This document shows positions 1 through 13,341 of a stretch of DNA of 32,000 nt, in pieces (position 1 is the stretch's first letter; each line of letters starts with the position of its first letter). The stretch is from Geotalea daltonii FRC-32 (GTDB lineage: Bacteria > Desulfobacterota > Desulfuromonadia > Geobacterales > Geobacteraceae): positions 4,200,001 to 4,232,000 of the forward strand of contig NC_011979.1 of the NCBI RefSeq assembly GCF_000022265.1, written 5' to 3'. The notes beneath the pieces are model-generated. The model had not been told where the DNA came from. It made no database searches and was given only the letters and a program-made list of their open reading frames with translations. The position numbers and the translations under genes were made by a program.

Positions 1-1404
1 GACCTTTTCATGGTTATCGTCGGAACCCTGCAGCGGTGCGGCGTTTGCGCTGCTGTGCAGCATGCCCAGGATCACCGCCTGCCGCGGGTCATCGTTCAGG
101 AAACCGAGGACCACCTCGTCATCCACCTCGGGCCTGAAAAAGAAACCGCGGTCATTTCCAGCATCCAGTGTGGCGACCCGCGCCCAGGTGCCGTCTTCTT
201 CAGCACTTACCAGCGGCATCCTGACACGCACGCGGTGTTCTCCGTCCGGGTCCTCGTTGGACACCACTACGCCGATCTGCAGGCCGCTTACCGCCGGCAG
301 AAGCGCAGCCGCTTTCGGAGCCGATACCGGCTGCTCCTCCGCAAACCATTTTTCCATACTTCCGAATTGGATATGGGTCTTCCACCCCTGCACCGTGTCG
401 AAATCGTGCCGAACTCCGGTGACGAAGACTTTACCGCTGAAACGCCCTCCGACACCGTCGACCTCTACCGTATCCCCGGGGTTCACACTTCCGATTCCCT
501 CGCACTTTATCCGCCCGCTTACCTTGCTCAGCTTCGATTTCAGCCACTGCGCATCGGCCCATGCCTGCGCCTCTTCCTCGGTAACCGCCGCAGATTGCAG
601 CCGGTAGTGGTCGAGCCCTGCAACAGCTGCGAGATCATCGGTGGAAACATCCCCCGGAGCAAGTTGCCCCGGATCGGTGGCATCCTTTTCTGAGACTGCC
701 TGCTGGGCCGGGTCCCAGGTAAAGCTCTTCACCGCAGGATATTGGAACCGCGAATCCATCTCGGCGTCCATCTCCAAGATGGTGGCCCCATACAGCAGTG
801 TACAGACCGGCGTGCCACCGAGCTTCGGCGTTGCGACCTTCACTTTTTTGTCGTTCGCGAAGACCGCTCTACCGCATGCATCTGCCCGGGAGACGATAAA
901 ATCCCAGTCGGTCGAATCATACTGCACCTGTTGCTTGTGGGTGACCGATGTGGACTCCACGTCGGCATCGACGGAAGCGGCATCAAGAAGGGCTGTGATA
1001 ATGTCACTGTCGGTCTGGTCGAAAAAATAGGCGCTTTTCCGTCCGATGGTCATCTTGCTGGCCTGGTGGCGGCACTCGACCACGAGCTGCGATGGGCTGC
1101 GGTCGCGGATCTTGATACTCTGCCGTACCACTGTTCCATTAAAAAGAGATACCTCGTCGCTGCCACTGCCTGCAACGATTTCAACCTCCCCGCCGGGCAG
1201 GAAGAGACTATCATCGGCCAGGGGGAACTTACCGGACGAGGCGGAGCCGTCCAGGTAGACGAGTTGCGCAGACGACAGCCGGTTCACCATCTTCGTTATG
1301 GACAACCCAAGGAGATGGTGCTCGCGGTTCACCGCCGTACCGTCCACCTTTATGGTGAACTCGCGGTGGGTGGCTGAAATGGGTAACGTTCTCTGTGCAG
1401 GAAT
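1..1404 (-). CDS. eCIS spike/hub protein, VgrG (gpD + gp5 OB-fold) family, Afp8/Pvc8-like. Its 3' end lies beyond the window and its start codon is uncertain.
   Basis: Not in the ORF track because the frame stays open to the window edge. My minus-strand translation from 1404 reads IPAQRTLPISATHREFTIKVDGTAVNREHHLLGLSITKMVNRLSSAQLVYLDGS...GRIKCEGIGSVNPGDTVEVDGVGGRFSGKVFVTGVRHDF...LQIGVVVSNEDPDGEHRVRVRMPL...WARVATLDAGNDRGFFFRPEVDDEVVLGFLNDDPRQAVILGMLHS. These are typical gpD-hub and gp5/VgrG OB-fold motifs. It lies directly downstream of the LysM tube-initiator gene. Confidence 0.85.
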   Translation of the reverse strand, partial: MPAQRTLPISATHREFTIKVDGTAVNREHHLLGLSITKMVNRLSSAQLVYLDGSASSGKFPLADDSLFLPGGEVEIVAGSGSDEVSLFNGTVVRQSIKIRDRSPSQLVVECRHQASKMTIGRKSAYFFDQTDSDIITALLDAASVDADVESTSVTHKQQVQYDSTDWDFIVSRADACGRAVFANDKKVKVATPKLGGTPVCTLLYGATILEMDAEMDSRFQYPAVKSFTWDPAQQAVSEKDATDPGQLAPGDVSTDDLAAVAGLDHYRLQSAAVTEEEAQAWADAQWLKSKLSKVSGRIKCEGIGSVNPGDTVEVDGVGGRFSGKVFVTGVRHDFDTVQGWKTHIQFGSMEKWFAEEQPVSAPKAAALLPAVSGLQIGVVVSNEDPDGEHRVRVRMPLVSAEEDGTWARVATLDAGNDRGFFFRPEVDDEVVLGFLNDDPRQAVILGMLHSSANAAPLQGSDDNHEKV

Positions 1405-1406
1405 GG

Positions 1407-2075
1407 CTATTTCTCCAGCGGCGGAAAGAACACCTTAGTTCCGGGAACAAGTTTCCGGAAGTTGTCGAGGCCGTTCACCACGGCTACCTGAAGGTAGTAA
1501 CCGGGATCACCGTATATTTCGTTGCACATGGACGGGAGGTTGTCGGCCACCCGCACGACACGCACATGTGTCAGGTCGGGAGACTCGTCCCGCGCGATAG
1601 CTTGGCGGGTGCGGTCATCCGAATTATCGGTAAAGGTGGCGGTAATGATCGCCCTCAAAGGAATGCCGCTCGGCTGGAACATCTTATAGGCGATGGAGGC
1701 GCTCTTGAGTACGCACCTCTTCACCTGCAGCTTACCCCACACTACCTTAAGGTAATGCGGACGGTGGATTGTCCCGTCATAGCCGGTAACCGTCTGGAAC
1801 TCCTCTATTTTCTGCTGGACATCGATCTTTTTCCCGTTGGCTCCGGTGCCGTCGATGAAAAAGGTCAGCGACATATCCCCCGGCTTCGCCTTCTTGAAAT
1901 TCATTCTGCTGTTGGTGGTACCGGCACCCTGGGCGCTGTCGTACTCCATCTCGTACGAAAGCGTGATTTCGTTCGGATTCAGAAAGGACTCGAATGTTCC
2001 ACAGGGGGAATCGGAATAATCGGGCTCGCGGAAGGCCAGAATCAGCAGTTTTTCAAGAGCTCCCATGTCCGCCAT
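1407..2075 (-). CDS. eCIS tube-initiator / baseplate-hub tube-like protein with C-terminal LysM domain (Afp7/Pvc7-like)
   Basis: 222-aa ORF. The N-terminus is tube-like (LLILAFREPDYS...NEITLSYEMEY). The C-terminus is LysM-like (THVRVVRVADNLPSMCNEIYGDPGYYLQVAVVNGLDNFRKLVPGTKVFFPP). It sits between the DUF5908-like and VgrG-like genes. Confidence 0.85.
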   Translation of the reverse strand: MADMGALEKLLILAFREPDYSDSPCGTFESFLNPNEITLSYEMEYDSAQGAGTTNSRMNFKKAKPGDMSLTFFIDGTGANGKKIDVQQKIEEFQTVTGYDGTIHRPHYLKVVWGKLQVKRCVLKSASIAYKMFQPSGIPLRAIITATFTDNSDDRTRQAIARDESPDLTHVRVVRVADNLPSMCNEIYGDPGYYLQVAVVNGLDNFRKLVPGTKVFFPPLEK

Positions 2076-2078
2076 CGG

Positions 2079-2240
2079 CTATCGCTCCCCTTTCCGTGCA
2101 AGAATATCGAGCACCCGCTCCACGCACTCATTCACAACCGACTGTTTATCTTCGGTCGATGAGGGGGGAGCGGCGCTCCCCCCTGAAGCATCGTTGGTTA
2201 CCTCTACGGAAATGACAACTTCATCGACTATGATCGGCAT
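2079..2240 (-). CDS. DUF5908-like small eCIS protein (Afp6/Pvc6-like), 53 aa
   Basis: I take the internal ATG at 2240 of track ORF 2079..2351. It lies 1 nt after the upstream tube gene stop. The N-terminus MPIIVDEVVISVEV matches the MPIEIxELxIKxxV-type start of DUF5908 proteins as I recall them. The position (tube, small protein, LysM protein) is the canonical one. Confidence 0.6.
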   Translation of the reverse strand: MPIIVDEVVISVEVTNDASGGSAAPPSSTEDKQSVVNECVERVLDILARKGER

Positions 2241-2241
2241 G

Positions 2242-2688
2242 CTATGATTTATCCATGGTGAAACGCTGGTAGTAAAGCTGGAGCGACTCGATGGAAACGG
2301 CGCTGTTCGAGGCATTGAGGTCGCCCAGCGACCATTTGGTCGGATACGCACCGACCAGGTGCCAGGTAAGGAGTGGCTGGTGCTGTTCGTTCAGCAGCTT
2401 GATGTCCACGCTCTTCGGCTCGATGTCCATATCCTCGATGCACCGCCGTACCCACTCCGTTATTTCCGAATTAACGAGGAGACCGCGCTTCAACACCAGC
2501 TCGGTATACCTCGCCCGTGTGGGGAACTTCTGCACGAAGCGGTTCTCTCCCCCCTCGGGCACCTCTTCGGTTGCCATTTCCATCGACAGTCCCGTCACCT
2601 CGGTGAACCGGACGTCGTTATCGTTGGACGGAAGCCCGAGGACCTCGACCTTGAAATGAAAGGCAACGGGGGGATAGTAGTTCGCCAT
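2242..2688 (-). CDS. contractile-tail tube protein (T4 gp19-like / TIGR02241 family; Afp5- or Afp1-like)
   Basis: 148 aa. The N-terminus YPPVAFHFKVEV...VRFTEVTGL and the C-terminus ...VSIESLQLYYQRF are hallmark tube-protein motifs. The start overlaps the upstream stop (TGATG at 2686-2690). Confidence 0.9.
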   Translation of the reverse strand: MANYYPPVAFHFKVEVLGLPSNDNDVRFTEVTGLSMEMATEEVPEGGENRFVQKFPTRARYTELVLKRGLLVNSEITEWVRRCIEDMDIEPKSVDIKLLNEQHQPLLTWHLVGAYPTKWSLGDLNASNSAVSIESLQLYYQRFTMDKS

Positions 2689-3128
2689 CAGTCGTTTTGC
2701 ACCTCGAGCCCTTCGTGAGCTATTTCGATCGACTCGATCGCCACTTCGTTGCCGCTTGCCTTGAGCTGCGGCCCCTCGACCTTCACCGGGAACGCCTTAT
2801 GGACCTTCCAGACCATGACCGGGTCATGGTTCTCGTTCAGAAGGCTGATGGTGAGGTCCCGCCGCTCGACGGTGTTGAGCTTGACTGTGCTGAGCCAGGC
2901 AAAAAAATCGTTGTCGCTCTTCACGACCCCCCGCTTCAGGGTGATGTTGCTGAATTTTCGGAGTCCCGGCATCTTGATTGAGGAGTACTCGGGAAACGAC
3001 CCGTCACGATACTCGATCGCCTGGTTCTCCTGGGTAAGGCCGGTAACTTCCGAAAACCCGATGCGCTTGCCCCCCCATTCGACCCTGAAATGAAATACGG
3101 GAAGCGGATAATCTGCTGTAATGGCCAT
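2688..3128 (-). CDS. contractile-tail tube protein (T4 gp19-like / TIGR02241 family; Afp1-like)
   Basis: 146 aa. Motifs: YPLPVFHFRVEWGGKRIGFSEVTGL...ITLKRGVV...VAIESIEIAHEGL. It is a paralogue of the adjacent tube gene. Confidence 0.9.
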   Translation of the reverse strand: MAITADYPLPVFHFRVEWGGKRIGFSEVTGLTQENQAIEYRDGSFPEYSSIKMPGLRKFSNITLKRGVVKSDNDFFAWLSTVKLNTVERRDLTISLLNENHDPVMVWKVHKAFPVKVEGPQLKASGNEVAIESIEIAHEGLEVQND

Positions 3129-3184
3129 GGTCTTGATTCCTTTTCTATTGGATTCGGAAAATCATTATCGATCGATGTCCCAGG

Positions 3185-5122
3185 CTATGACGTCTGCAAC
3201 TTGTGGGAGAACTTGAGTACGATGAACTCGGCCGGGCGGACGACGGCCATGCCGATCTCCACATTCATCCGCCCTTCGAGTATGTCCTGGGAATTCATCG
3301 TCGTCCCCAGGCCGCACCTGACGAAAAACGCCTCCTTGGGGGTCGCCCCGGCAAGCGCTCCGTCGCGCCATTTCTGCATGAGGTAGTTCTCGATCATGCC
3401 CCGCACCTTCACCCATGTGTTGGCATCGTTCGGCTCGAACACCGCCCAATAGGTGGATTTCTTCACCGACTCCTCCACCATGTTGAAAAACCTTCTGACC
3501 GAGATGTAACGCCATTCGTTGTCGTTACCGGCGAGGGTGCGCGCCCCCCAGACCAGCGTCCCTTTTCCGGAGAACGCCCTGATGGCATTTATCGACTTCC
3601 CGGCATTCGTATCAATATTCAGGTTGTCGGTCTCGTCGGCATCGAACTGGTAGATCGGCCCCACGACACCTGCGAGGCTTACGTTGGCCGGAGCTTTCCA
3701 GACCCCCCTGGCGTTGTCCACGGCGGCACATACCCCGGCAATCGCTCCGCTCGGAGGAACAGTGGTTGCCGTTTCGTTGATCCCCTTGAGGATCTTCCGG
3801 TATAGGGGAAAGCTCTCATAGAGGGATGTTTCATAGGTGCTGGCGTAATTAGAAGCACTCATGACGATGCCCATTACCGTCTCGCGGATAATTGCGAAGT
3901 TCTTTGCCACGTTCGGAAAGATCGCATCGCACTTCGCCTCGTCGGTCGTTGCCTCACCGGGGATGATCGACGACTTGCCCGGTGAGGAAGAGGAAAAGAT
4001 CCCTCCCCATTCGGTTGCTGCAGGATCGGGATCTACGCCCCAGCTGGCAATGTATTCATCGCTGGCGACGGATTCGTCGAGCTCCTTTTCGTTCGCTATC
4101 AGCTCCTCGTATGCCTTCTTGAGCCTCCCCTCTATCGCATCCTTTATATCCTTCCTTAGTCTCTCTCCCTTCACCCCGGAGGTCACATCGAGAAGTTTTT
4201 CGGCTAAATCAGGGATCCTGAAGATGAACTCGAAGATATCCCCCATCTTGCCGAGCCCCTTGTTGTTCTTGTATGCAGCCACCAGATCCTGGTACCCTTG
4301 GTTGATGCTCTTGGAAGTGCCGAGCAGGTCTTTCATCTTCGCATCTACCGTCGATATGTCTTCAAGCGCCGTTTCGACCAGCTTGACAAGGTCCTTTATC
4401 CCCTTGTCGGTCGTAAGTTGCTCGATGGAAGTTTTCGTCCCTCCGACATAGATGGCATCCCTGACATTGGCGTACGGGATATTCTTGCTCACACTGATGT
4501 TGAGCCAGGGAGTATAGGCGGCGCCGTATTTCAGGTTGTTGATCCCTATCTTGTCGCGGAATAAGGTTCCGTTCGGGTCGTCAAGGCGAGTTTCGAATAT
4601 CCCGACCCGGTCCATCAGGTCCCCGCACTGCATGAGTGCCTGCTGCTGCACCTCTCCGAGAGCACCGGCATCGAGGGAGGCGGCATCGGGGAAAAGCAGC
4701 ATCGTCGGCTCGTCGTACTTCTTGAGTTCCCGAACCCCCGCTATCAGCTTCTCTTTGCTCACATCCTCTTCATAGTTTCCGACGGAAACGATGTAGCATT
4801 TCCCCCCCCCGTTATCGAAGAAAAGCCTCAGGCTGTCGTAAAGGTAGAAGTTTCTGCTCTCGAAGTTGGCGCTGACAAAGTTGTAGCCTTCGTCGAGATT
4901 GACTTCCTTTGGAACTACGGCCGGAGCACCTCCGAAGTACATCTCGAAGTCGGGCAACGACTTTATCTTCGTCGGTACCATGCTTAGATCCTTGTCGGTG
5001 ATCTTCGTCGCCCTTGCGGTGTACCCCACGAACGCAGGGACCGCGGTCTCGACTTCGGCCACCGACGGTGGAAACAGAGAAATCTCGTCGACATAAACAT
5101 CCGGTGTTTTCAATGGTCTCAT
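3185..5122 (-). CDS. contractile-tail sheath protein (Afp2-4/Pvc2-4-like), 645 aa
   Basis: I take the ATG at 5122 inside track ORF 3185..5290; it is preceded by AAGGATGAGGA. The N-terminus is PDVYVDEISLFPPSVAEVETAVPAFVGY. The C-terminal half carries PPSGAIAGVCAAVDNARGVWKAPANVSL...INAIRAFSGKGTLVWGARTL...WRYISVRRFFNMVEESV...FEPND, which are classic sheath motifs. Confidence 0.92.
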   Translation of the reverse strand: MRPLKTPDVYVDEISLFPPSVAEVETAVPAFVGYTARATKITDKDLSMVPTKIKSLPDFEMYFGGAPAVVPKEVNLDEGYNFVSANFESRNFYLYDSLRLFFDNGGGKCYIVSVGNYEEDVSKEKLIAGVRELKKYDEPTMLLFPDAASLDAGALGEVQQQALMQCGDLMDRVGIFETRLDDPNGTLFRDKIGINNLKYGAAYTPWLNISVSKNIPYANVRDAIYVGGTKTSIEQLTTDKGIKDLVKLVETALEDISTVDAKMKDLLGTSKSINQGYQDLVAAYKNNKGLGKMGDIFEFIFRIPDLAEKLLDVTSGVKGERLRKDIKDAIEGRLKKAYEELIANEKELDESVASDEYIASWGVDPDPAATEWGGIFSSSSPGKSSIIPGEATTDEAKCDAIFPNVAKNFAIIRETVMGIVMSASNYASTYETSLYESFPLYRKILKGINETATTVPPSGAIAGVCAAVDNARGVWKAPANVSLAGVVGPIYQFDADETDNLNIDTNAGKSINAIRAFSGKGTLVWGARTLAGNDNEWRYISVRRFFNMVEESVKKSTYWAVFEPNDANTWVKVRGMIENYLMQKWRDGALAGATPKEAFFVRCGLGTTMNSQDILEGRMNVEIGMAVVRPAEFIVLKFSHKLQTS

Positions 5123-5132
5123 AGTCGGTTCC

Positions 5133-6146
5133 TCATCCTTTCGATATGTGGATGACGATCTTCCCGTCCGGCTTGTCGGCCGCAGGTAGCGGCAGCGACT
5201 TGATGAGCGTTTCGTCATTCCTGAGCAACTGCATTTTTCTCGTTCCTGCTTCAGCCCTAGGTATCGGTTTTTCCGATCTGAACAGGGCAACCCTCGCCTC
5301 CATGCCGCCGAGCCCCTTGTACCCTGGTGGCATTTCTTCGGGTCGTACCCTTTCGAAAGATGTCTTCGAATCTCCGTTGTTGCCGTTACCCTGCGCTTTC
5401 TCCTCGACCTTCACCTGATCCAGCTCTTCTTCCGAGTATCCCTTCGCCACCACGTAATATTCGAGGAACTCTTCCTTCCTCTCGAACGGGATGTTCAGCT
5501 GTATGGGGGCATCTTTGGACTGGTAAAAAGAGTCGTCTATCGCCACTTCGACGATTGCGAGCCCACCAGCCTGCAGCATCTCGGCATCACGGTAATACCA
5601 GGTCGTTGTTTCCGAGCCGGGAGCACCTTCATCAACCATAAAATGACGACCGGAATAGCCGTTCAATGTGAACCGGGCCTCGCGAAACTCCGCATTTGCA
5701 GCCATCTCTTCAGCCAGAATATGGCCGCTATCATCCCGCAAAACCAAGCTCAAAGGCCGGACCTCGCTTACAACCGAATGGGAAAGAAGGTCCCTGGTGA
5801 CTGTTACCTCCCTTGCACTCTCGAATCTCTCCGGGAGGGAACCGTTCCGGTAGTAGAGGACCCGCTTGGGGGAAACATTGACATTTGTGAAATTCATGAA
5901 ATACGGGTTGAGCAACACGAGCCGAAATCTCACCGTCGCGCCTGCCAGGGAGAAAAGAGGGTTGTTTCCGGCGTCCACCTCGTGAAGGAAGTACAGGACA
6001 CCATTTTTCACCCTGGAGAGCACCCTCGCGTTCCGCAGGAGCTCCCGTGTATCTCCAAGCAGTACAAAGTCGATGTCGTTGCAGCTCTTTAAGTAGTAAC
6101 CATGAGAGATCGCTACCGTGAAAAGAGTTCTGAAGGTAGTGATCAT
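5133..6146 (-). CDS. hypothetical protein, unassigned eCIS-operon component (337 aa)
   Basis: Long ORF translationally coupled on both sides: an ATGA overlap with the DUF4255 gene at 6143-6146, and an end 10 nt before the sheath start. It has no signal peptide, no TM segment and no motif I recognise. Confidence 0.7.
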   Translation of the reverse strand: MITTFRTLFTVAISHGYYLKSCNDIDFVLLGDTRELLRNARVLSRVKNGVLYFLHEVDAGNNPLFSLAGATVRFRLVLLNPYFMNFTNVNVSPKRVLYYRNGSLPERFESAREVTVTRDLLSHSVVSEVRPLSLVLRDDSGHILAEEMAANAEFREARFTLNGYSGRHFMVDEGAPGSETTTWYYRDAEMLQAGGLAIVEVAIDDSFYQSKDAPIQLNIPFERKEEFLEYYVVAKGYSEEELDQVKVEEKAQGNGNNGDSKTSFERVRPEEMPPGYKGLGGMEARVALFRSEKPIPRAEAGTRKMQLLRNDETLIKSLPLPAADKPDGKIVIHISKG

Positions 6147-6712
6147 TGACTGTTCGTATCTCCCTGTATTTTCGTAACAGGAGGCTTCACGGTTTTTACC
6201 GCCCCATCCTGAATCGTTATCATCCTGACCTTATACAGGACAGAAGGAAGCTGTTTGGCGCCGATGAAACCCCATATCTGGTTGAGCTGCTCGTAGGAGG
6301 GAGATTGCAGCTCTACGCTCAGCTTCGCTATCTGTCTGTCAAGGGCAGGGTATTGTTCGGAAGTAAATGAAGGACGGGACTGAAAAAAGGAGATTATGTG
6401 GGAAATGGCTTTTAAAGCGACATCATAAACAGTGTAATTCGCGGCAAACAGGAGATAGATATTCAACTTCAGTTCCGGCTCCAGAACTACATGCTGATCA
6501 CCTACCAGCCTGTGTTCCAGAGTCTGAGACTTTAGCACTCGCTCCTCTTCAATATTGATAATGCTGAGGCCAATCGTATCGCTGTCAATGGCATACTCAC
6601 CCTTCCCATTGACTACAGGTCCCAGCTTGACCTTGGTAAAGCCTGTGCGGTCACTGGTTAGACTGTACGCGTTGATCTCGTCCGAGAGAAACTGAAGGGC
6701 AACATCGAGCAC
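6143..6712 (-). CDS. DUF4255 (Pvc16_N) domain protein, eCIS tail terminator/cap (Afp16-like)
   Basis: 189 aa. GTG start at 6712 preceded by GGAGG at 6-nt spacing. The N-terminus LDVALQFLSDEIN and the overall size fit DUF4255 proteins that open many eCIS operons; this assignment is from memory. Confidence 0.7.
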   Translation of the reverse strand: MLDVALQFLSDEINAYSLTSDRTGFTKVKLGPVVNGKGEYAIDSDTIGLSIINIEEERVLKSQTLEHRLVGDQHVVLEPELKLNIYLLFAANYTVYDVALKAISHIISFFQSRPSFTSEQYPALDRQIAKLSVELQSPSYEQLNQIWGFIGAKQLPSVLYKVRMITIQDGAVKTVKPPVTKIQGDTNSQ

Positions 6713-6843
6713 CAGTACCTCCAGAGAAAGCTGTGGAAGATTAATTGGCGGAAGTTTGTGTTGCTGGGTTCAGAACGACAACAGCATGGCCTGTTTTTTT
6801 ATTTAAAATACAAAATATAGTTTGTTTCTTTAATTTAAGCAGC

Positions 6844-6872
6844 TTATTAACATAAAACTAACCGCCTGTCAA
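6844..6872 (-). promoter_or_regulatory. candidate sigma70 promoter of the eCIS operon
   Basis: Minus strand reads TTGACA (6872..6867), 17 nt, TAATAA (6849..6844), with TG two nt upstream of the -10. It lies in a very AT-rich 183-bp gap, about 130 nt upstream of the GTG at 6712. Confidence 0.4.
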
Positions 6873-11414: not shown

Positions 11415-11882
11415 ATGCCCAGTCACTTTTTTCTCTTGGGAGGAATTGTTTTCCTGGCGGCGCAATTCTTAGCTGTTCAGCCGGCAAATGCCGTTTTGGG
11501 GGAACCAGCCACTTCCATTGCATCGGATAAAGAGTCTCTCGGGGGCTTGCGGATTGCCAAGTCAGCCGGCGACGGCTTTGAGGTACAGGAGATACAGTCT
11601 GAAGCCACTTCGGTGCGGGAATACATCTCACCTGACGGAATTGTTTTTGCCATTGCCTGGAATGGCTTGGTCCATCCCGATCTTACCCATCTCCTCGGGT
11701 CCTACGCCTCTGAATATCAGCAGGCGTTGAAAGAGGTTCCCCGCAAGCCGGGGCGCCAAAGCCTGCAGGTAACCTCAAGCAGGGTCATCGTCGAAAAATG
11801 GGGCCATATGCGGAACCTGCAGGGACGCGCCTATGCACCTGATCTGTTGCCGGCGGGGGTGACCATCAATGAGATCCGATAA
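11415..11882 (+). CDS. secreted protein, probably DUF2844 family
   Basis: Signal peptide (FLAAQFLAVQPANA|VLGE). It overlaps the next gene by 14 nt. I recall DUF2844 proteins being the usual neighbours of DUF3443 proteins. Confidence 0.6.
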   Translation: MPSHFFLLGGIVFLAAQFLAVQPANAVLGEPATSIASDKESLGGLRIAKSAGDGFEVQEIQSEATSVREYISPDGIVFAIAWNGLVHPDLTHLLGSYASEYQQALKEVPRKPGRQSLQVTSSRVIVEKWGHMRNLQGRAYAPDLLPAGVTINEIR

Positions 11883-13341
11883 CCTGCTCTTTCGCTCCAT
11901 GCTGATGCTTATTCTCGCTCTGGCCATGGGTGGCTGCGGCGACAGCGGAAACAGCAACGCAGCACTAGCGCCGAAAGTTCTCCTCTCCATCGCCGTCACA
12001 CCATCGGCGCATTCCCTGAGTACGGGACAGACCCAGCAGTTCTCAGCTACCGGCACCTTTTCCGACGGCACGTCCCAGGATCTCACTACTGCGGCCGCAT
12101 GGTCATCCACAGATGCGGCTGTGGCAACAATAAACAACGCCGGTCTTGCCACAGCAGTCGCTGCCGGGTCTACGGCCATTACCGCAACATCCGGCGACGT
12201 CAAAGGCTCGACCACTCTCACTGTAACCTCCGCGGCCGGGGTAGCCGGGGCCACCGAGCGCAATGTCATGCCAGTCACCGTCAACGGCTCGCTCTGTTCG
12301 GCCAACTCCTATCCCAACAAACCGTGCGTCGCCGTTACGGTCTGCATCCCCGGCACTACCACCTGTACGACTATCAATGATATCCTGCTGGATACTGGAA
12401 GTTTCGGCTTGCGTCTTTTCAAGCAACCCTTGGGGCTCGAATTGCCCGCCGCACCAGGTGCCTCGGGTGAATTGGCCGAATGCATCCAATTTGCCGACGG
12501 CACCTCGGAGTGGGGTCCCATCCGCATGGCCAGCGTCACCCTCGGCAACGAGCCGGCAATCAATATCCCGATCCATGTCTTTGATACCTCCTTTGGCACA
12601 CGTTCCACCGCCTGTCTCGATGCCGATCCCGATCCGGCTACAGCCGGGTTCAATGGCATACTCGGGGTCGGGCTGTTCCCGCAGGACTGCGGAAGCAGAT
12701 GCGCCAACGCTGCCGCCAACGGCATGTATTTTTCCTGCAACGGCACTTCCTGCATCGGCACTACCGTGGCCGTTGCCGACCAGGTGAAGAATCCGGTCGC
12801 CTTCCTCCCCCAGGACAATAACGGCATACTCGTCCGGTTTCCCGCCGTTTCCGCAACAGGGGCACCGTCGGTAGACGGCAGTCTCATCTTCGGCATCGGC
12901 ACTCAACCAAACAATACACCGACGGCAGTCAAGACCTTTGCCGTCAACCAGTTCGGGGAAATAACCACCGTCTTCAATGGAGTCTCGAACGGCAGCTTCA
13001 TCGACAGCGGCTCCAATGGACTCTTTTTCCCCCAGCCGGCCCAGCCGCCGCTTCCCCCGTGCCCTTCCCCCTTTGCCGCCTGGTACTGTCCACCAGAGGA
13101 ACTGCCCCTTTCCGCCACGGTCATTGCGGCGGCCGGCGTCCCGACGGCAGAGATCCCGTTCCGGGTCGGCAATTTCCTCAATCTCACCGCCACAGGAAAC
13201 AGGGTTTTCAATAATATCGGCGGCCCCTCCCATGGCAACATCTTCGACTGGGGCTTCCCCTTCTTCCTGGGCAGGGATGTCTTCATCGGCATCGAAGGAA
13301 AAGGGACCAATCTAGGTAACGGACCCTTCTGGGCATTTTGA
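11869..13341 (+). CDS. lipoprotein with a Big_2-like Ig domain and a DUF3443-type domain carrying pepsin-like aspartic protease motifs
   Basis: Lipobox LALAMGGC. A Big_2-like segment (LLSIAVTPSAHSLSTGQTQQFSATGTFSDGTSQDLT...ITATSGDVKGSTTLTV). Then ILLDTGSFGL (D175, nt 12391), FNGILGVGL, DGSLIFGIG and SFIDSGSNGLFF (D379, nt 13003). Confidence 0.85.
   Translation: MRSDNLLFRSMLMLILALAMGGCGDSGNSNAALAPKVLLSIAVTPSAHSLSTGQTQQFSATGTFSDGTSQDLTTAAAWSSTDAAVATINNAGLATAVAAGSTAITATSGDVKGSTTLTVTSAAGVAGATERNVMPVTVNGSLCSANSYPNKPCVAVTVCIPGTTTCTTINDILLDTGSFGLRLFKQPLGLELPAAPGASGELAECIQFADGTSEWGPIRMASVTLGNEPAINIPIHVFDTSFGTRSTACLDADPDPATAGFNGILGVGLFPQDCGSRCANAAANGMYFSCNGTSCIGTTVAVADQVKNPVAFLPQDNNGILVRFPAVSATGAPSVDGSLIFGIGTQPNNTPTAVKTFAVNQFGEITTVFNGVSNGSFIDSGSNGLFFPQPAQPPLPPCPSPFAAWYCPPEELPLSATVIAAAGVPTAEIPFRVGNFLNLTATGNRVFNNIGGPSHGNIFDWGFPFFLGRDVFIGIEGKGTNLGNGPFWAF

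What the first reader, a model, noticed from the sequence alone, without database searches (positions are those of the whole stretch)
1..6872. Promoter-proximal half of a phage-tail-like contractile injection system (eCIS) operon in a non-prophage context
Eight co-directional genes are tightly coupled (ATGA/TGATG overlaps at 6143-6146 and 2686-2690, other gaps of 1-56 nt). They encode cap/terminator (DUF4255), an unknown protein, sheath, two tube paralogues, a DUF5908-like protein, a LysM tube-initiator and a VgrG-like spike. This matches the Afp/PVC-type module set, but with the Afp16-like cap gene first rather than last.

Upstream are a hydrolase gene and pfkA. No capsid, terminase, integrase or lysis genes are visible, which argues for a domesticated injection device rather than a prophage. 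The baseplate, tape measure, AAA+ ATPase, tail fibre and cargo genes should lie just beyond position 1. Contractile injection systems of Geobacter-like bacteria are, to my knowledge, experimentally unexplored.
Basis: partly seen in the sequence, partly recalled or inferred. Interest (0 to 1): 0.75.

Follow-up and report, generated by a model that had tools for sequence, protein, structure and literature searches.

The report
Already-catalogued Geotalea contractile injection system

Summary
Window 1-6712 (minus strand) holds eight tightly coupled genes with strong HMM hits: cap (Pvc16_N), a 337-aa protein, sheath, two gp19-type tube proteins, DUF5908, a CIS_tube/LysM initiator and a VgrG spike.

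A contig 100% identical to window 1-3080 supplies the predicted remainder: PAAR, gp25, a long Baseplate_J protein, a Cis12-like protein, a fibre, a tape measure, an AAA+ ATPase and a DUF4157 cargo candidate. Multihaem cytochromes follow. No capsid, terminase, integrase, lysis or TssJLM genes lie on either side.

The window is Geotalea (Geobacter) daltonii FRC-32, NC_011979 4,200,001-4,232,000. Geller et al. 2021 already list Geob_3742-3757 as an eCIS operon, so the locus is not new.

I refine three points:
- The system is clade Ib (AlgoCIS / Anabaena tCIS / SalCIS type), not Afp/PVC (Ia). In clade Ib the cap-first gene order is normal.
- The "unknown" gene is the cap adaptor Cis16B, and DUF5908 is the Cis6 plug.
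- Geob_3745 is an Alg19/Cis19-type fibre.

Two side leads are more novel. The spike gene appears to start at AUU, here and in about half of the relatives. Two related operons carry a c-di-GMP-I riboswitch in their leader.

The parts
6844..6872 (-). Promoter-like site: TTGACA (6872-6867), 17-nt spacer, TAATAA (6849-6844). It sits in the 183-nt, 34% GC intergenic region upstream of the cap gene.
   Evidence: Read directly from the sequence. A TTGAC(A/T)-N16/17-TAnnAn site lies at a comparable position upstream of the cap gene in five relatives: L036, L003, L012, L025 and L006 (by eye). The consensus scanner did not report it because its -10 is weak. Inference only.
6143..6712 (-). cis16A (Geob_3757): short cap / tube terminator, 189 aa. 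GTG start 5 nt after GGAGG.
   Evidence: Pfam Pvc16_N 1.2e-32. PDB: AlgoCIS cap 7adz_0A 1.6e-20, Anabaena All3327 1.4e-19, SalCIS 9r9n_B 5.4e-16. At 189 aa it is like Alg16A (197 aa), not the two-domain Afp16/Pvc16 (about 295 aa) (PMC8894135).
5133..6146 (-). cis16B (Geob_3756): cap adaptor, 337 aa, with an inserted Ig-like middle domain (about residues 111-205).
   Evidence: A profile of 30 syntenic homologues searched against PDB hits SalCis16b 2.3e-11, AlgoCIS cap adaptor 3.6e-07 and All3326 0.054. The only significant Foldseek hit of the AF2 model is 7b5i_AB (All3326), E 1.2e-05; the model is weak, pLDDT 57. The gene always sits between cap and sheath. The family has 1149 representatives at E<=1e-3. 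Shorter (~260-280 aa) members match in two stretches and lack part of the middle region (about profile positions 111-183).
3185..5122 (-). cis2 (Geob_3755): single contractile sheath protein, 645 aa, with a large extra middle region.
   Evidence: Pfam Phage_sheath_1C and Phage_sheath_1. PDB: AlgoCIS Alg2 1.2e-121, Anabaena All3325 1.1e-116 and SalCIS 1.3e-106, against Pvc2/Afp2 about 1e-56 to 1e-58.
2688..3128 (-). cis1 (Geob_3754): main inner-tube protein, 146 aa.
   Evidence: Pfam Phage_T4_gp19 1.3e-47. Assigned as Cis1 from its position directly after the sheath gene and because the other paralogue is the Cis5 type.
2242..2688 (-). cis5 (Geob_3753): tube-type protein of the tube-baseplate junction, 148 aa.
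   Evidence: Pfam Phage_T4_gp19 1.1e-43. Best PDB hits are 7aeb_Y 7.5e-50 (a 147-aa chain found only in the AlgoCIS baseplate entries 7aeb/7aef, taken to be Alg5), All3323 4.6e-31, Pvc5 and Afp5; all of these rank ahead of the main-tube proteins Alg1, Pvc1 and Afp1.
2079..2240 (-). cis6 (Geob_3752): 53-aa 'plug' that sits in the tube-facing cavity of the spike.
   Evidence: Pfam DUF5908 2.3e-16. PDB: AlgoCIS Algo6 (7aef_t) 4.8e-07 and Anabaena Asl3322 0.0044. Its role as the plug comes from PMC8894135.
1407..2075 (-). cis7 (Geob_3751): tube initiator, 222 aa.
   Evidence: Pfam CIS_tube 4.9e-45 over residues 7-158. Annotated afp7 by Geller et al..
1..1404 (-). cis8 (Geob_3750): VgrG-like spike, the first 468 of 596 codons (it runs off the left end of the window). 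The probable start is ATT at 1404-1402. Annotated starts are GTG 1347 (gene caller behind L049) or 1332 (gene coordinates listed by Geller et al.).
   Evidence: Pfam Phage_GPD and Phage_base_V. The ATT codon aligns with the ATG of 17 relatives. It lies 2 nt after the cis7 stop codon and 8 nt after GGAG. The following 18 codons evolve as coding sequence.

Best explanation
Window 1-6872 is the promoter-proximal half of a complete 16-gene, roughly 23.3-kb operon, Geob_3757 to Geob_3742, in Geotalea daltonii FRC-32. The operon encodes a clade Ib contractile injection system of the AlgoCIS / Anabaena tCIS / SalCIS type.

**Shown by homology.** The genes specify:
- a two-protein cap: Cis16A plus the cap adaptor Cis16B;
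- one sheath protein (Cis2);
- the tube (Cis1) and junction ring (Cis5);
- the Cis6 plug and the Cis7 initiator;
- a Cis8 spike tipped by PAAR;
- a Cis9/Cis11/Cis12 baseplate, in which the long Cis11 matches the cage-forming Alg11;
- an Alg19/Cis19-type fibre;
- a tape measure and an AAA+ ATPase;
- one DUF4157 protein.

**Inferred from the solved relatives.** The baseplate nucleates on the spike-plug-initiator complex. The tube grows along the tape measure and the sheath polymerises around it. The Cis16A/16B cap ends growth and locks the last sheath ring. The ATPase loads the DUF4157 protein (Geob_3742) into the tube lumen through its N-terminal region. Fibre binding to a target surface then triggers sheath contraction, which drives the spike and cargo into the target.

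**Mode of action.** The most likely mode is a free particle, as in AlgoCIS (my estimate about 0.6). No structural protein has a transmembrane helix, there is no Cis13 anchor, and the fibre tip diverges quickly between close strains.

**Origin.** The system is a domesticated device, not a prophage, and was acquired horizontally.
For: **HMM calls.** All eight window genes and the eight downstream genes were checked. L049 is 100% identical to window 1-3080, and its gene list completes the operon.

**Clade Ib assignment.** The best solved-structure matches are always clade Ib:
- sheath: Alg2 1.2e-121, against Afp2 2.6e-56;
- cap;
- Cis11: Alg11 5.6e-149 over residues 70-985, against Afp11 1.8e-38;
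- Cis12: Alg12 4.5e-138;
- fibre: Alg19 chain of 9wt0 2.5e-47 and All3314/Cis19 1.5e-27;
- plug, Cis5 and cap adaptor.

**Context.** The gene order is conserved in about 40 loci from several phyla. The flanks are housekeeping genes, with no phage or T6SS membrane-complex genes. No strong hydrophobic helix occurs in any structural protein.

**Fibre divergence.** Between FRC-32 and G. toluenoxydans, the first 1 kb of the fibre gene is 95-96% identical at the nucleotide level, but the distal 2 kb is only 83-87% identical.

**Cargo architecture.** Geob_3742 has an N-terminal region, a DUF4157 domain with HELTH at residue 203, and a long C-terminal part. This mirrors AlgoCIS Cgo2 (bioRxiv 10.64898/2026.05.27.728243).

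**Independent annotation.** Geller et al. assigned afp1-16 labels to the same genes.
Against: - No particle, transcript or protein evidence exists for this locus.
- Clade Ib also contains non-extracellular systems: T6SSiv, thylakoid-anchored tCIS and possibly membrane-interacting SalCIS. Sequence alone therefore cannot fix the mode of action (PMC8894135, PMC8894136, PMC13266070).
- No lysis or release genes are nearby.
- The cargo's nuclease-like C-terminal domain is just below Pfam's threshold (25.9 bits against 27).
- The cap-adaptor AF2 model is of low confidence.
- The spike lacks a canonical start codon at its conserved N-terminus.
- Clade placement rests on best-hit ranking and hallmark genes. 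I did not build a phylogeny with dbeCIS references.
Confidence: 0.85

Rival explanations
1. The same clade Ib machine does not act as a free extracellular particle. Instead it works from inside or attached to the producer, like T6SSiv of Amoebophilus, the thylakoid-anchored tCIS of Anabaena, or the cytoplasmic Streptomyces CIS that mediates cell death.
For: Clade Ib mixes these modes among close relatives (PMC8894135; PMC8894136). No lysis cassette lies next to the operon. The VgrG's closest relatives outside Geobacter include many cyanobacteria at 63-70% identity.
Against: There is no Cis13 gene between cis11 and cis12. No predicted transmembrane helix occurs in Cis12, the fibre or any other structural protein. 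In Anabaena the TM helix of Cis13 is needed for anchoring and was found only in filamentous cyanobacteria. No SalCis20-like membrane protein is present in the operon. The fibre has an Alg19-type shoulder and a fast-diverging distal part, which suits binding to an external receptor.
Confidence: 0.25
2. It is the tail module of an intact or decaying myovirus prophage.
For: The sheath, tube, gp25, Baseplate_J and spike families are shared with contractile phage tails.
Against: There are no capsid, portal, terminase, integrase, lysis or tRNA/att features on either side within about 52 kb. The eCIS-specific genes are present: Pvc16_N cap, CIS_TMP, AAA+ ATPase, DUF5908 and DUF4157. GC content is equal to the flanks, 0.553 against 0.557.
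Confidence: 0.01
3. It is a canonical type VI secretion system (subtypes i-iii).
For: VgrG, PAAR, gp25 (TssE-like), sheath and tube analogues are present, and the fibre shoulder is TssK-like.
Against: No TssJ/L/M, TssA or ClpV-type gene is in the locus. The tape measure, Afp16-type cap and Afp11-type protein are present, and these are absent from T6SS i-iii (PMC6899500).
Confidence: 0.01
4. It is an R-type tailocin: a cargo-less killing particle that depolarises bacterial membranes.
For: It is a phage-tail-like particle in a non-prophage context. The fibre tip diverges between strains, as in pyocins.
Against: The operon has an AAA+ loading ATPase and a DUF4157 protein at its 3' end, which are the signature of cargo-carrying eCIS. 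It has no holin/endolysin cassette. The best structural matches are eCIS; the pyocin sheath scores only 4.4e-09.
Confidence: 0.03

Closest known systems
AlgoCIS of Algoriphagus machipongonensis (clade Ib eCIS; PDB 7ADZ/7AEB/7AEF/9WT0)
   Same: It gives the best solved-structure match for every part tested except the cap adaptor, for which SalCis16b scores higher: cap, sheath, Cis5, plug, Cis11, Cis12 and fibre shoulder. It has a short one-domain cap plus a separate cap adaptor, and a single sheath gene. The long Cis11 aligns with Alg11 across the region that forms the spike cage. The Geotalea cargo candidate is organised like AlgoCIS cargo: disordered N-terminal region, DUF4157, C-terminal domain.
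   Different: The Geotalea cap adaptor is longer (337 aa against 284 aa) and carries an Ig-like insert. The sheath is 645 aa against 692 aa. The fibre is 984 aa against 1443 aa, and its shoulder starts only at residue 228, after an extension with no match. There is one DUF4157 protein rather than two. The host is an anaerobic subsurface metal reducer. No particles have been seen.
Anabaena sp. PCC 7120 thylakoid-anchored CIS (tCIS; all3313-all3327; PDB 7B5H/7B5I)
   Same: It has Cis16A (All3327), Cis16B (All3326) and sheath (All3325), numbered consecutively. It also has a plug (Asl3322), a Cis11 with a cage, and a Cis19 'crown' protein, All3314. All3314 matches Geob_3745 at 1.5e-27.
   Different: The Geotalea operon has no Cis13 with a transmembrane helix. 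Its Cis12 is 916 aa against 1335 aa, so it lacks the membrane-contacting extension. Geotalea has no thylakoids.
SalCIS of Salmonella enterica subsp. salamae (clade Ib; PDB 9R9H/9R9N/9RCE)
   Same: The cap gene comes first, followed by the cap adaptor. SalCis16b is the best hit of the Geotalea cap-adaptor profile, 2.3e-11.
   Different: The Geotalea operon has no SalCis20-like membrane hydrolase and no SalCis13. Its Cis11 and Cis12 match SalCIS much less well than they match AlgoCIS.
   Same: The core module set afp1/5, 2-4, 6-12 and 14-16 is shared, and Geller et al. used these labels for this locus.
   Different: Afp/PVC have several sheath paralogues, a two-domain cap (about 295 aa) encoded last, no separate cap adaptor, a short Afp11 (607 aa) without a cage, and an adenovirus-like Afp13 fibre. 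Sequence matches are tens of orders of magnitude weaker than to clade Ib (PMC8894135).
Geobacter sulfurreducens GSU0972-GSU0992 phage-tail-like cluster
   Same: It is another CIS-type locus in the same family of bacteria. It is listed by Geller et al. (NC_002939 1041859-1074108). It is up-regulated in a Δgsu1771 biofilm mutant (PMC10599522).
   Different: Its gene order differs: the AAA ATPase (GSU0972) comes first and the spike is split into 'protein D' and 'tail spike'. It is therefore probably another subtype. I did not compare the sequences.

Membership tests
eCIS superfamily (Chen et al. 2019 core backbone) | Homologues of the eight core subunit types: Afp1/5, Afp2/3/4, Afp7, Afp8, Afp9, Afp11, Afp15 and Afp16 | tested here: met
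   gp19 x2, sheath, CIS_tube, Phage_GPD plus Phage_base_V, and Pvc16_N lie in the window. GPW_gp25, Baseplate_J and AAA lie in L049. The criterion is quoted from PMC6899500.
eCIS superfamily | Not a prophage: no head, packaging, integration or lysis genes adjoining the tail module | tested here: met
   Pfam scans of 20 flanking ORFs on the right side found only housekeeping families or no match. On the left side the operon is followed by multihaem cytochromes. There are no tRNAs.
eCIS superfamily | Tape measure (Afp14-like) and a 3' DUF4157/toxin gene | tested here: met
   CIS_TMP 2.1e-95. eCIS_core 1.8e-32, with HELTH at residue 203.
Clade Ib CIS (AlgoCIS/tCIS/MAC/T6SSiv/SalCIS) | Two-protein cap: a short Cis16A plus a separate cap adaptor Cis16B | tested here: met
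   The cap is 189 aa and matches Alg16A. The profile of the 337-aa protein hits SalCis16b at 2.3e-11 and Alg16B at 3.6e-07. The top Foldseek hit is All3326.
Clade Ib CIS | Cis6 plug protein | tested here: met
   The 53-aa DUF5908 protein matches Algo6 at 4.8e-07 and Asl3322 at 0.0044.
Clade Ib CIS | A notably long Afp11 homologue carrying the spike-cage domain, and a single-ORF VgrG | tested here: met
   The 991-aa protein aligns with Alg11 over residues 70-985 (Alg11 103-1033), E 5.6e-149. That range spans Alg11 domain IV, residues 278-643. The VgrG is one ORF of 596 aa. The length criterion comes from PMC6899500. I did not model the cage fold itself.
Clade Ib CIS | Phylogenetic placement inside clade Ib in a sheath or Afp11 tree with dbeCIS references | not tested
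   Reference sequences for all six subtypes were not available offline. Only best-hit ranking was obtained: Ib structures score 1e-107 to 1e-149, Ia about 1e-33 to 1e-62.
Extracellular mode of action (true eCIS) | Particles are released from the producer, then bind and contract on a separate target cell | not testable with these tools
   Only indirect support: no membrane anchors, and an Alg19-type fibre with a divergent tip.
Thylakoid/membrane-anchored tCIS | A Cis13 fibre with a C-terminal transmembrane helix, plus an extended Cis12 | tested here: not met
   No gene lies between cis11 and cis12. Cis12 is 916 aa against 1335 aa for All3315. No 19-residue window reaches a mean Kyte-Doolittle hydropathy of 1.6 in Cis11 or Cis12.
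Canonical T6SS (i-iii) | TssJ/TssL/TssM membrane complex and a ClpV recycling ATPase | tested here: not met
   None are among the genes of the window or L049.

The most novel reading that the evidence does not exclude
Two regulatory features of this clade Ib sub-lineage appear not to have been described.

1. **AUU start on the spike gene.** The spike gene is translated from an AUU codon placed 2 nt after the stop of the tube-initiator gene. Seventeen of 36 loci, including this window, have ATT or ATC where the others have ATG or GTG. The state persists across deep divergence. A plausible purpose is to hold down synthesis of a protein needed in only three copies per particle.

2. **Riboswitch in the leader of relatives.** In at least two Desulfuromonadales relatives the whole operon sits behind a c-di-GMP-I (GEMM-I) riboswitch and a terminator-like hairpin. 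That would tie particle production to the cyclic-dinucleotide signalling that governs surface-attached, electroactive life in Geobacter.

The window shows the first feature. It lacks the second.
Probability: 0.4. Interest if true: 0.5.

Novelty: already known. Interest (0 to 1): 0.2.

Why it matters
As a discovery it matters little. The locus is operon 66697 in the Supplementary Data of Geller et al. 2021, with afp labels on most genes. That study already reported Geobacter as a genus enriched in eCIS: 10 of 24 genomes.

The remaining value is practical.
- Two genes left unlabelled in that catalogue now have assignments: Geob_3756 is the cap adaptor and Geob_3745 is an Alg19/Cis19-type fibre.
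- The system is placed next to AlgoCIS, which has genetics, structures and cargo-loading rules. Experiments in a cultivable, genetically tractable metal reducer could therefore be designed directly.
- What such a machine targets in anoxic, uranium-contaminated sediment is unknown.
- The AUU-start and riboswitch leads would be small but real additions to how these operons are regulated.

Tried and rejected
- **Exact-sequence look-ups.** The Cis7 protein returned nothing. The look-up of Cis1 gave only short contigs. I reached the rest of the operon through a homologue search with the fibre gene of the G. toluenoxydans locus, followed by a look-up of Geob_3745.
- **G. toluenoxydans draft (L036).** It is 95.8% identical over 11.4 kb but has 43 gaps and many broken ORFs. 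I used it only for nucleotide comparisons.
- **First homologue search for the 337-aa protein.** It found only 7 proteins. The AF2 model built from them was poor: pLDDT 57, with the N-terminal 118 residues below 50. The cap-adaptor assignment therefore rests mainly on the 30-sequence syntenic profile. The Foldseek hit is support only.
- **NCBIfam.** It gave no useful names for any structural gene.
- **Pfam on the fibre.** It found nothing in the N-terminal 230 aa or the C-terminal 571 aa, so the target type could not be inferred.
- **The 1160-aa cargo candidate.** It has no PDB sequence relative. Its Endonuclea_NS_2 match stays just under threshold.
- **Window leader.** Rfam found no RNA family in the window at gathering threshold, or in the operon leader at E<=10 beyond chance-level hits. 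The promoter/terminator scanner reported nothing in the leader on the operon strand.
- **Spread of the riboswitch.** nhmmer built from the two riboswitch copies found no further copies in the 48 loci. This method is insensitive.
- **A Cis7-Cis8 frameshift fusion** as an explanation for the missing spike start. I rejected it as less parsimonious, because half of the relatives have a plain ATG at the same codon.

Full report
**1. What is in the window**

On the minus strand, from 6712 down to position 1, lie eight co-directional ORFs. Their junctions are tight:
- ATGA at 6143-6146 (cap / next gene);
- 10 nt before the sheath gene;
- 56 nt before the first tube gene;
- TGATG at 2686-2690 between the two tube genes;
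- 1 nt and 3 nt around the 53-codon ORF.

| Gene | Pfam family | E-value |
|---|---|---|
| cap | Pvc16_N | 1.2e-32 |
| sheath | Phage_sheath_1C / Phage_sheath_1 | 2.3e-14 / 5.8e-08 |
| tube 1, tube 2 | Phage_T4_gp19 | 1.3e-47, 1.1e-43 |
| 53-aa ORF | DUF5908 | 2.3e-16 |
| tube initiator | CIS_tube | 4.9e-45 |
| spike | Phage_base_V / Phage_GPD | 3.3e-26 / 1.7e-09 |

The 337-aa protein has no Pfam hit.

The 183-nt region upstream of the cap gene is 34% GC, against 55-56% elsewhere. It contains TTGACA-N17-TAATAA at 6872-6844.

**2. Surroundings and the rest of the operon**

To the right (6896-32000) are only housekeeping-type genes:
- a hydrolase-like protein and pfkA;
- an Asp-Al_Ex/TrkA_C permease;
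- a DUF2844/DUF3443 pair;
- an RND efflux triplet;
- an MCP and a MATE transporter;
- an M20 peptidase and a GH15 glucoamylase;
- an outer-membrane beta-barrel protein.

There are no tRNAs and no Rfam families.

To the left, I recovered a 66-kb public contig (L049) that is 100% identical to window 1-3080. It continues with:
- the rest of the spike gene, 596 aa counted from the ATT;
- PAAR (4.2e-22) and gp25 (1.7e-19);
- a 991-aa Baseplate_J protein, a 916-aa protein and a 984-aa protein;
- CIS_TMP (2.1e-95);
- an AAA ATPase of 449 aa;
- a 1160-aa eCIS_core/DUF4157 protein (1.8e-32).

After a 557-nt gap comes a giant multihaem cytochrome. The operon therefore has 16 genes over about 23.3 kb. 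Neither refuting outcome occurred: there are no head or packaging genes and no TssJLM.

**3. Identity of the sequence and prior knowledge**

The 984-aa protein is Geob_3745 of Geotalea (Geobacter) daltonii FRC-32. The gene coordinates that Geller et al. 2021 give for NC_011979 equal the window coordinates plus 4,200,000. For example, Geob_3757 is at 4,206,143-4,206,712 and Geob_3755 at 4,203,185-4,205,122. The window is therefore NC_011979 4,200,001-4,232,000.

That paper's Supplementary Data list this region as eCIS operon 66697, with these labels:

| Locus tag(s) | Label in Geller et al. |
|---|---|
| Geob_3757 | afp16 |
| Geob_3755 | afp2_3_4 |
| Geob_3754, 3753 | afp1_5 |
| Geob_3752 | afp6 |
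| Geob_3751 | afp7 |
| Geob_3750 | afp8 |
| Geob_3749 | afp10 |
| Geob_3748 | afp9 |
| Geob_3747 | afp11 |
| Geob_3746 | afp12 |
| Geob_3744 | afp14 |
| Geob_3743 | afp15 |
| Geob_3742 | DUF4157 |
| Geob_3756, 3745 | no label |

The same data show Geobacter as an eCIS-enriched genus: 10 of 24 genomes, q = 1.9e-9. No paper in the library mentions these locus tags in its main text. The locus is thus catalogued but experimentally untouched. A different CIS-type cluster of G. sulfurreducens (GSU0972-0992) has been seen to be up-regulated in a biofilm mutant (PMC10599522).

**4. Which kind of CIS**

Comparison with solved structures places the system with clade Ib, not with Afp/PVC:

| Component | Clade Ib matches | Clade Ia matches |
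|---|---|---|
| Sheath | Alg2 1.2e-121; All3325 1.1e-116; SalCIS 1.3e-106 | Pvc2/Afp2 about 1e-57 |
| Cap | Alg16A 1.6e-20; All3327 1.4e-19 | none at E <= 0.01 |
| Cis11 | Alg11 5.6e-149 over nearly full length | Afp11 1.8e-38 |
| Cis12 | Alg12 4.5e-138 | Afp12 2.2e-17 |

Chen et al. 2019 note that subtype Ib has a single, 'notably longer' afp11 and a single-ORF VgrG. Both are true here.

The three hallmarks that the AlgoCIS paper defined for this clade are all present:
- **Plug.** The 53-aa DUF5908 protein matches Algo6 (4.8e-07).
- **Long cage-bearing Cis11**.
- **Cap adaptor** (section 5).

The second tube paralogue is of the Cis5 type: 7aeb_Y 7.5e-50 (a 147-aa chain present only in the AlgoCIS baseplate entries 7aeb/7aef, taken to be Alg5), then All3323, Pvc5 and Afp5.

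**5. The 'unknown' 337-aa protein**

The protein is conserved between cap and sheath in about 35 of 46 related loci from Desulfuromonadota, Desulfobacterota, Cyanobacteria, Bacteroidota, Gemmatimonadota, Planctomycetota, Verrucomicrobiota and others. Identity is 25-38% (61% to the Geobacter MAG L003), with a strongly conserved N-terminal motif F-x-T-L-F-T-x-x-V-x-H-x-Y-Y.

A profile of 30 of these proteins hits SalCis16b (2.3e-11), the AlgoCIS cap adaptor (3.6e-07) and All3326 (0.054) in the PDB. The AF2 model is weak (pLDDT 57). Even so, its only significant Foldseek match is All3326 in the Anabaena cap complex (1.2e-05).

An exhaustive profile search finds 1149 cluster representatives at E<=1e-3. 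Members of about 260-280 aa match in two stretches and lack part of the middle region, about profile positions 111-183. The PDB profile search also picks up Ig-like S-layer and adhesin domains over profile positions 127-214. I therefore read the 337-aa protein as Cis16B with an inserted Ig-like domain.

Work on AlgoCIS and SalCIS shows that this protein locks the last sheath ring and is needed for proper assembly.

**6. Fibre, cargo and likely mode of action**

*Fibre.* Residues 228-411 of Geob_3745 match the N-terminal shoulder of the 1443-aa Alg19 chain in 9wt0 (2.5e-47) and All3314/Cis19 (1.5e-27). In AlgoCIS, Alg19 trimers are the fibres that bind target bacteria and bridge the baseplate wedges (PMC13314943). 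Between FRC-32 and G. toluenoxydans JCM 15764, most genes are 94-97% identical at the nucleotide level. In the fibre, the first 1 kb is 95-96% identical but the distal 2 kb only 83-87%. PAAR (86%) and Cis11 (91%) are also lower. Such a pattern is expected for target-contacting parts.

*Anchoring.* No structural protein has a convincing transmembrane segment. There is no Cis13, the protein that anchors the Anabaena system.

*Cargo.* Geob_3742 has a 136-residue N-terminal region, a DUF4157 domain with HELTH, and a long C-terminal part. The last 260 residues give a near-threshold Endonuclea_NS_2 match (25.9 bits against a cut-off of 27) around a GHLLND motif. The architecture mirrors AlgoCIS Cgo2. 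In AlgoCIS the N-terminal region is the loading signal, and the authors propose that the AAA+ ATPase Alg15 mediates loading (bioRxiv 10.64898/2026.05.27.728243).

*Judgement.* A released, AlgoCIS-like particle carrying a probable nuclease toxin is the most likely reading (about 0.6). A producer-associated mode remains open (about 0.25), because clade Ib contains such systems and no release genes are visible.

**7. Origin**

The operon's GC content equals that of its flanks. The neighbours are shared with G. toluenoxydans but not with the Geobacter MAG L003, where a Cys/Met-metabolism gene with a SAM riboswitch lies upstream. The spike is 63-70% identical to those of many cyanobacteria, one of them on a plasmid. 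This fits old horizontal spread of a domesticated device.

**8. Things noticed on the way**

*(a) The spike gene lacks a canonical start at its conserved N-terminus.*
- The codon aligned with the ATG (17 loci) or GTG (2 loci) of relatives is ATT here and in 15 other loci, and ATC in one.
- It lies 2 nt after the cis7 stop codon and 8 nt after a conserved GGAG.
- In the ATT/ATC loci analysed (16 of the 17), the next 18 codons vary mostly at third positions: 0.27 / 0.13 / 0.48 at codon positions 1 / 2 / 3. In the ATG/GTG loci analysed (18 of the 19) the values are 0.20 / 0.09 / 0.58.
- Ten of those 16 loci (this window included) have no canonical start between the upstream in-frame stop and the ATT/ATC. 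One locus has none for 72 codons downstream.
- In a neighbour-joining tree the ATT loci are scattered and basal.

AUU initiation is the most economical reading. Existing annotations start the gene at 1347 (GTG; the gene caller behind L049) or 1332 (the coordinates listed by Geller et al.), and so omit 19-24 conserved residues. I found no paper describing this.

*(b) A riboswitch in the leader of two related operons.*
- The operons are L025 (a Desulfuromonadales MAG) and L012 (Geobacter sp. L1geo).
- Each has a c-di-GMP-I riboswitch aptamer (59.8 and 48.6 bits; gathering score 35) between a promoter-like site and the cap gene.
- A hairpin with a T-run follows each aptamer.
- The window's leader has none.
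- I found no paper linking riboswitches to such operons.

**9. Verdict**

The refinements are: clade Ib rather than Afp/PVC type; cap-first order is normal; and the unknown gene is the cap adaptor. Because this exact locus is already in a published eCIS catalogue and belongs to a structurally well-described clade, the novelty is 'already known' and the interest is low. The two regulatory side observations are the only parts that might be new.

Noticed in passing
window 1402-1404 (minus strand); homologous codon in loci L003-L046: The spike (cis8) gene's conserved N-terminus begins at ATT, 2 nt after the cis7 stop and 8 nt after GGAG. Across 36 loci this codon is ATG 17, ATT 16, ATC 1 and GTG 2. 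The downstream 18 codons evolve as coding sequence in the ATT loci. ATT loci are scattered across the spike tree. This is probable AUU initiation. Current annotations start at 1347 or 1332 and truncate the protein.
   Followed up: partly
L025 5264-5352 and L012 4984-5080 (related loci, not the window): A c-di-GMP-I (GEMM-I, RF01051) riboswitch aptamer scores above the gathering threshold in the 5' leader of the homologous CIS operon. It sits between a TTGAC(A/T)-N16/17-TATTAT site and the cap gene, and is followed by a hairpin and a T-run. It is absent from the window's leader and from the other loci by nhmmer.
   Followed up: partly
L049 10001-12955 (Geob_3745), just left of the window: The Alg19/Cis19-type fibre has a roughly 225-aa N-terminal extension before the shoulder domain, with no detectable family. 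Its distal 2 kb is only 83-87% identical between G. daltonii and G. toluenoxydans, against 95-96% for its first 1 kb. PAAR (86%) and Cis11 (91%) are also faster-evolving than the rest (94-97%).
   Followed up: partly
L049 16176-19658 (Geob_3742): This cargo candidate has an N-terminal region, a DUF4157 domain (HELTH at residue 203) and a long C-terminal part. There is a hydrophobic stretch near residue 684. A near-threshold Endonuclea_NS_2 match lies around a GHLLND motif at residues about 980-1050. No immunity-like small ORF was called by the contig's gene table between this gene and the cytochrome gene downstream.
   Followed up: partly
L049 20216-22955 and beyond (Geob_3739-3741): Three very large multihaem c-type cytochromes (GSu_C4xC__C2xCH repeats; 1453-2427 aa from the listed coordinates) lie directly after the CIS operon on the same strand. 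Geller et al. included them in their operon window. I found no evidence for or against a functional link.
   Followed up: no
window 5133-6146, residues about 111-205 of the protein: The cap adaptor carries an inserted Ig-like domain; part of this region (about profile positions 111-183) is missing from ~260-280-aa family members in the exhaustive search, and the solved homologues are also shorter (260-284 aa). Weak profile matches to S-layer Sap and SdrD-type domains fall over profile positions 127-214. The family (1149 representatives at E<=1e-3) has no Pfam model.
   Followed up: partly
window 11415-13341 (+): An adjacent DUF2844 (155 aa) and Big_2 + DUF3443 (490 aa) gene pair of unknown function overlaps by 14 nt. 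It is unrelated to the CIS.
   Followed up: no
L036 (Geotalea toluenoxydans JCM 15764 draft), whole locus: The orthologous operon in this draft genome has 43 alignment gaps over 11.4 kb relative to the window, and many split ORFs (sheath, Cis7, spike, Cis11). These are most likely sequencing frameshifts rather than pseudogenes.
   Followed up: no
L003 3723-3828 (minus strand): A SAM riboswitch (98 bits) precedes a Cys/Met-metabolism PLP enzyme gene next to the CIS operon of a Geobacter MAG. This shows that the operon sits in a different genomic neighbourhood there.
   Followed up: no
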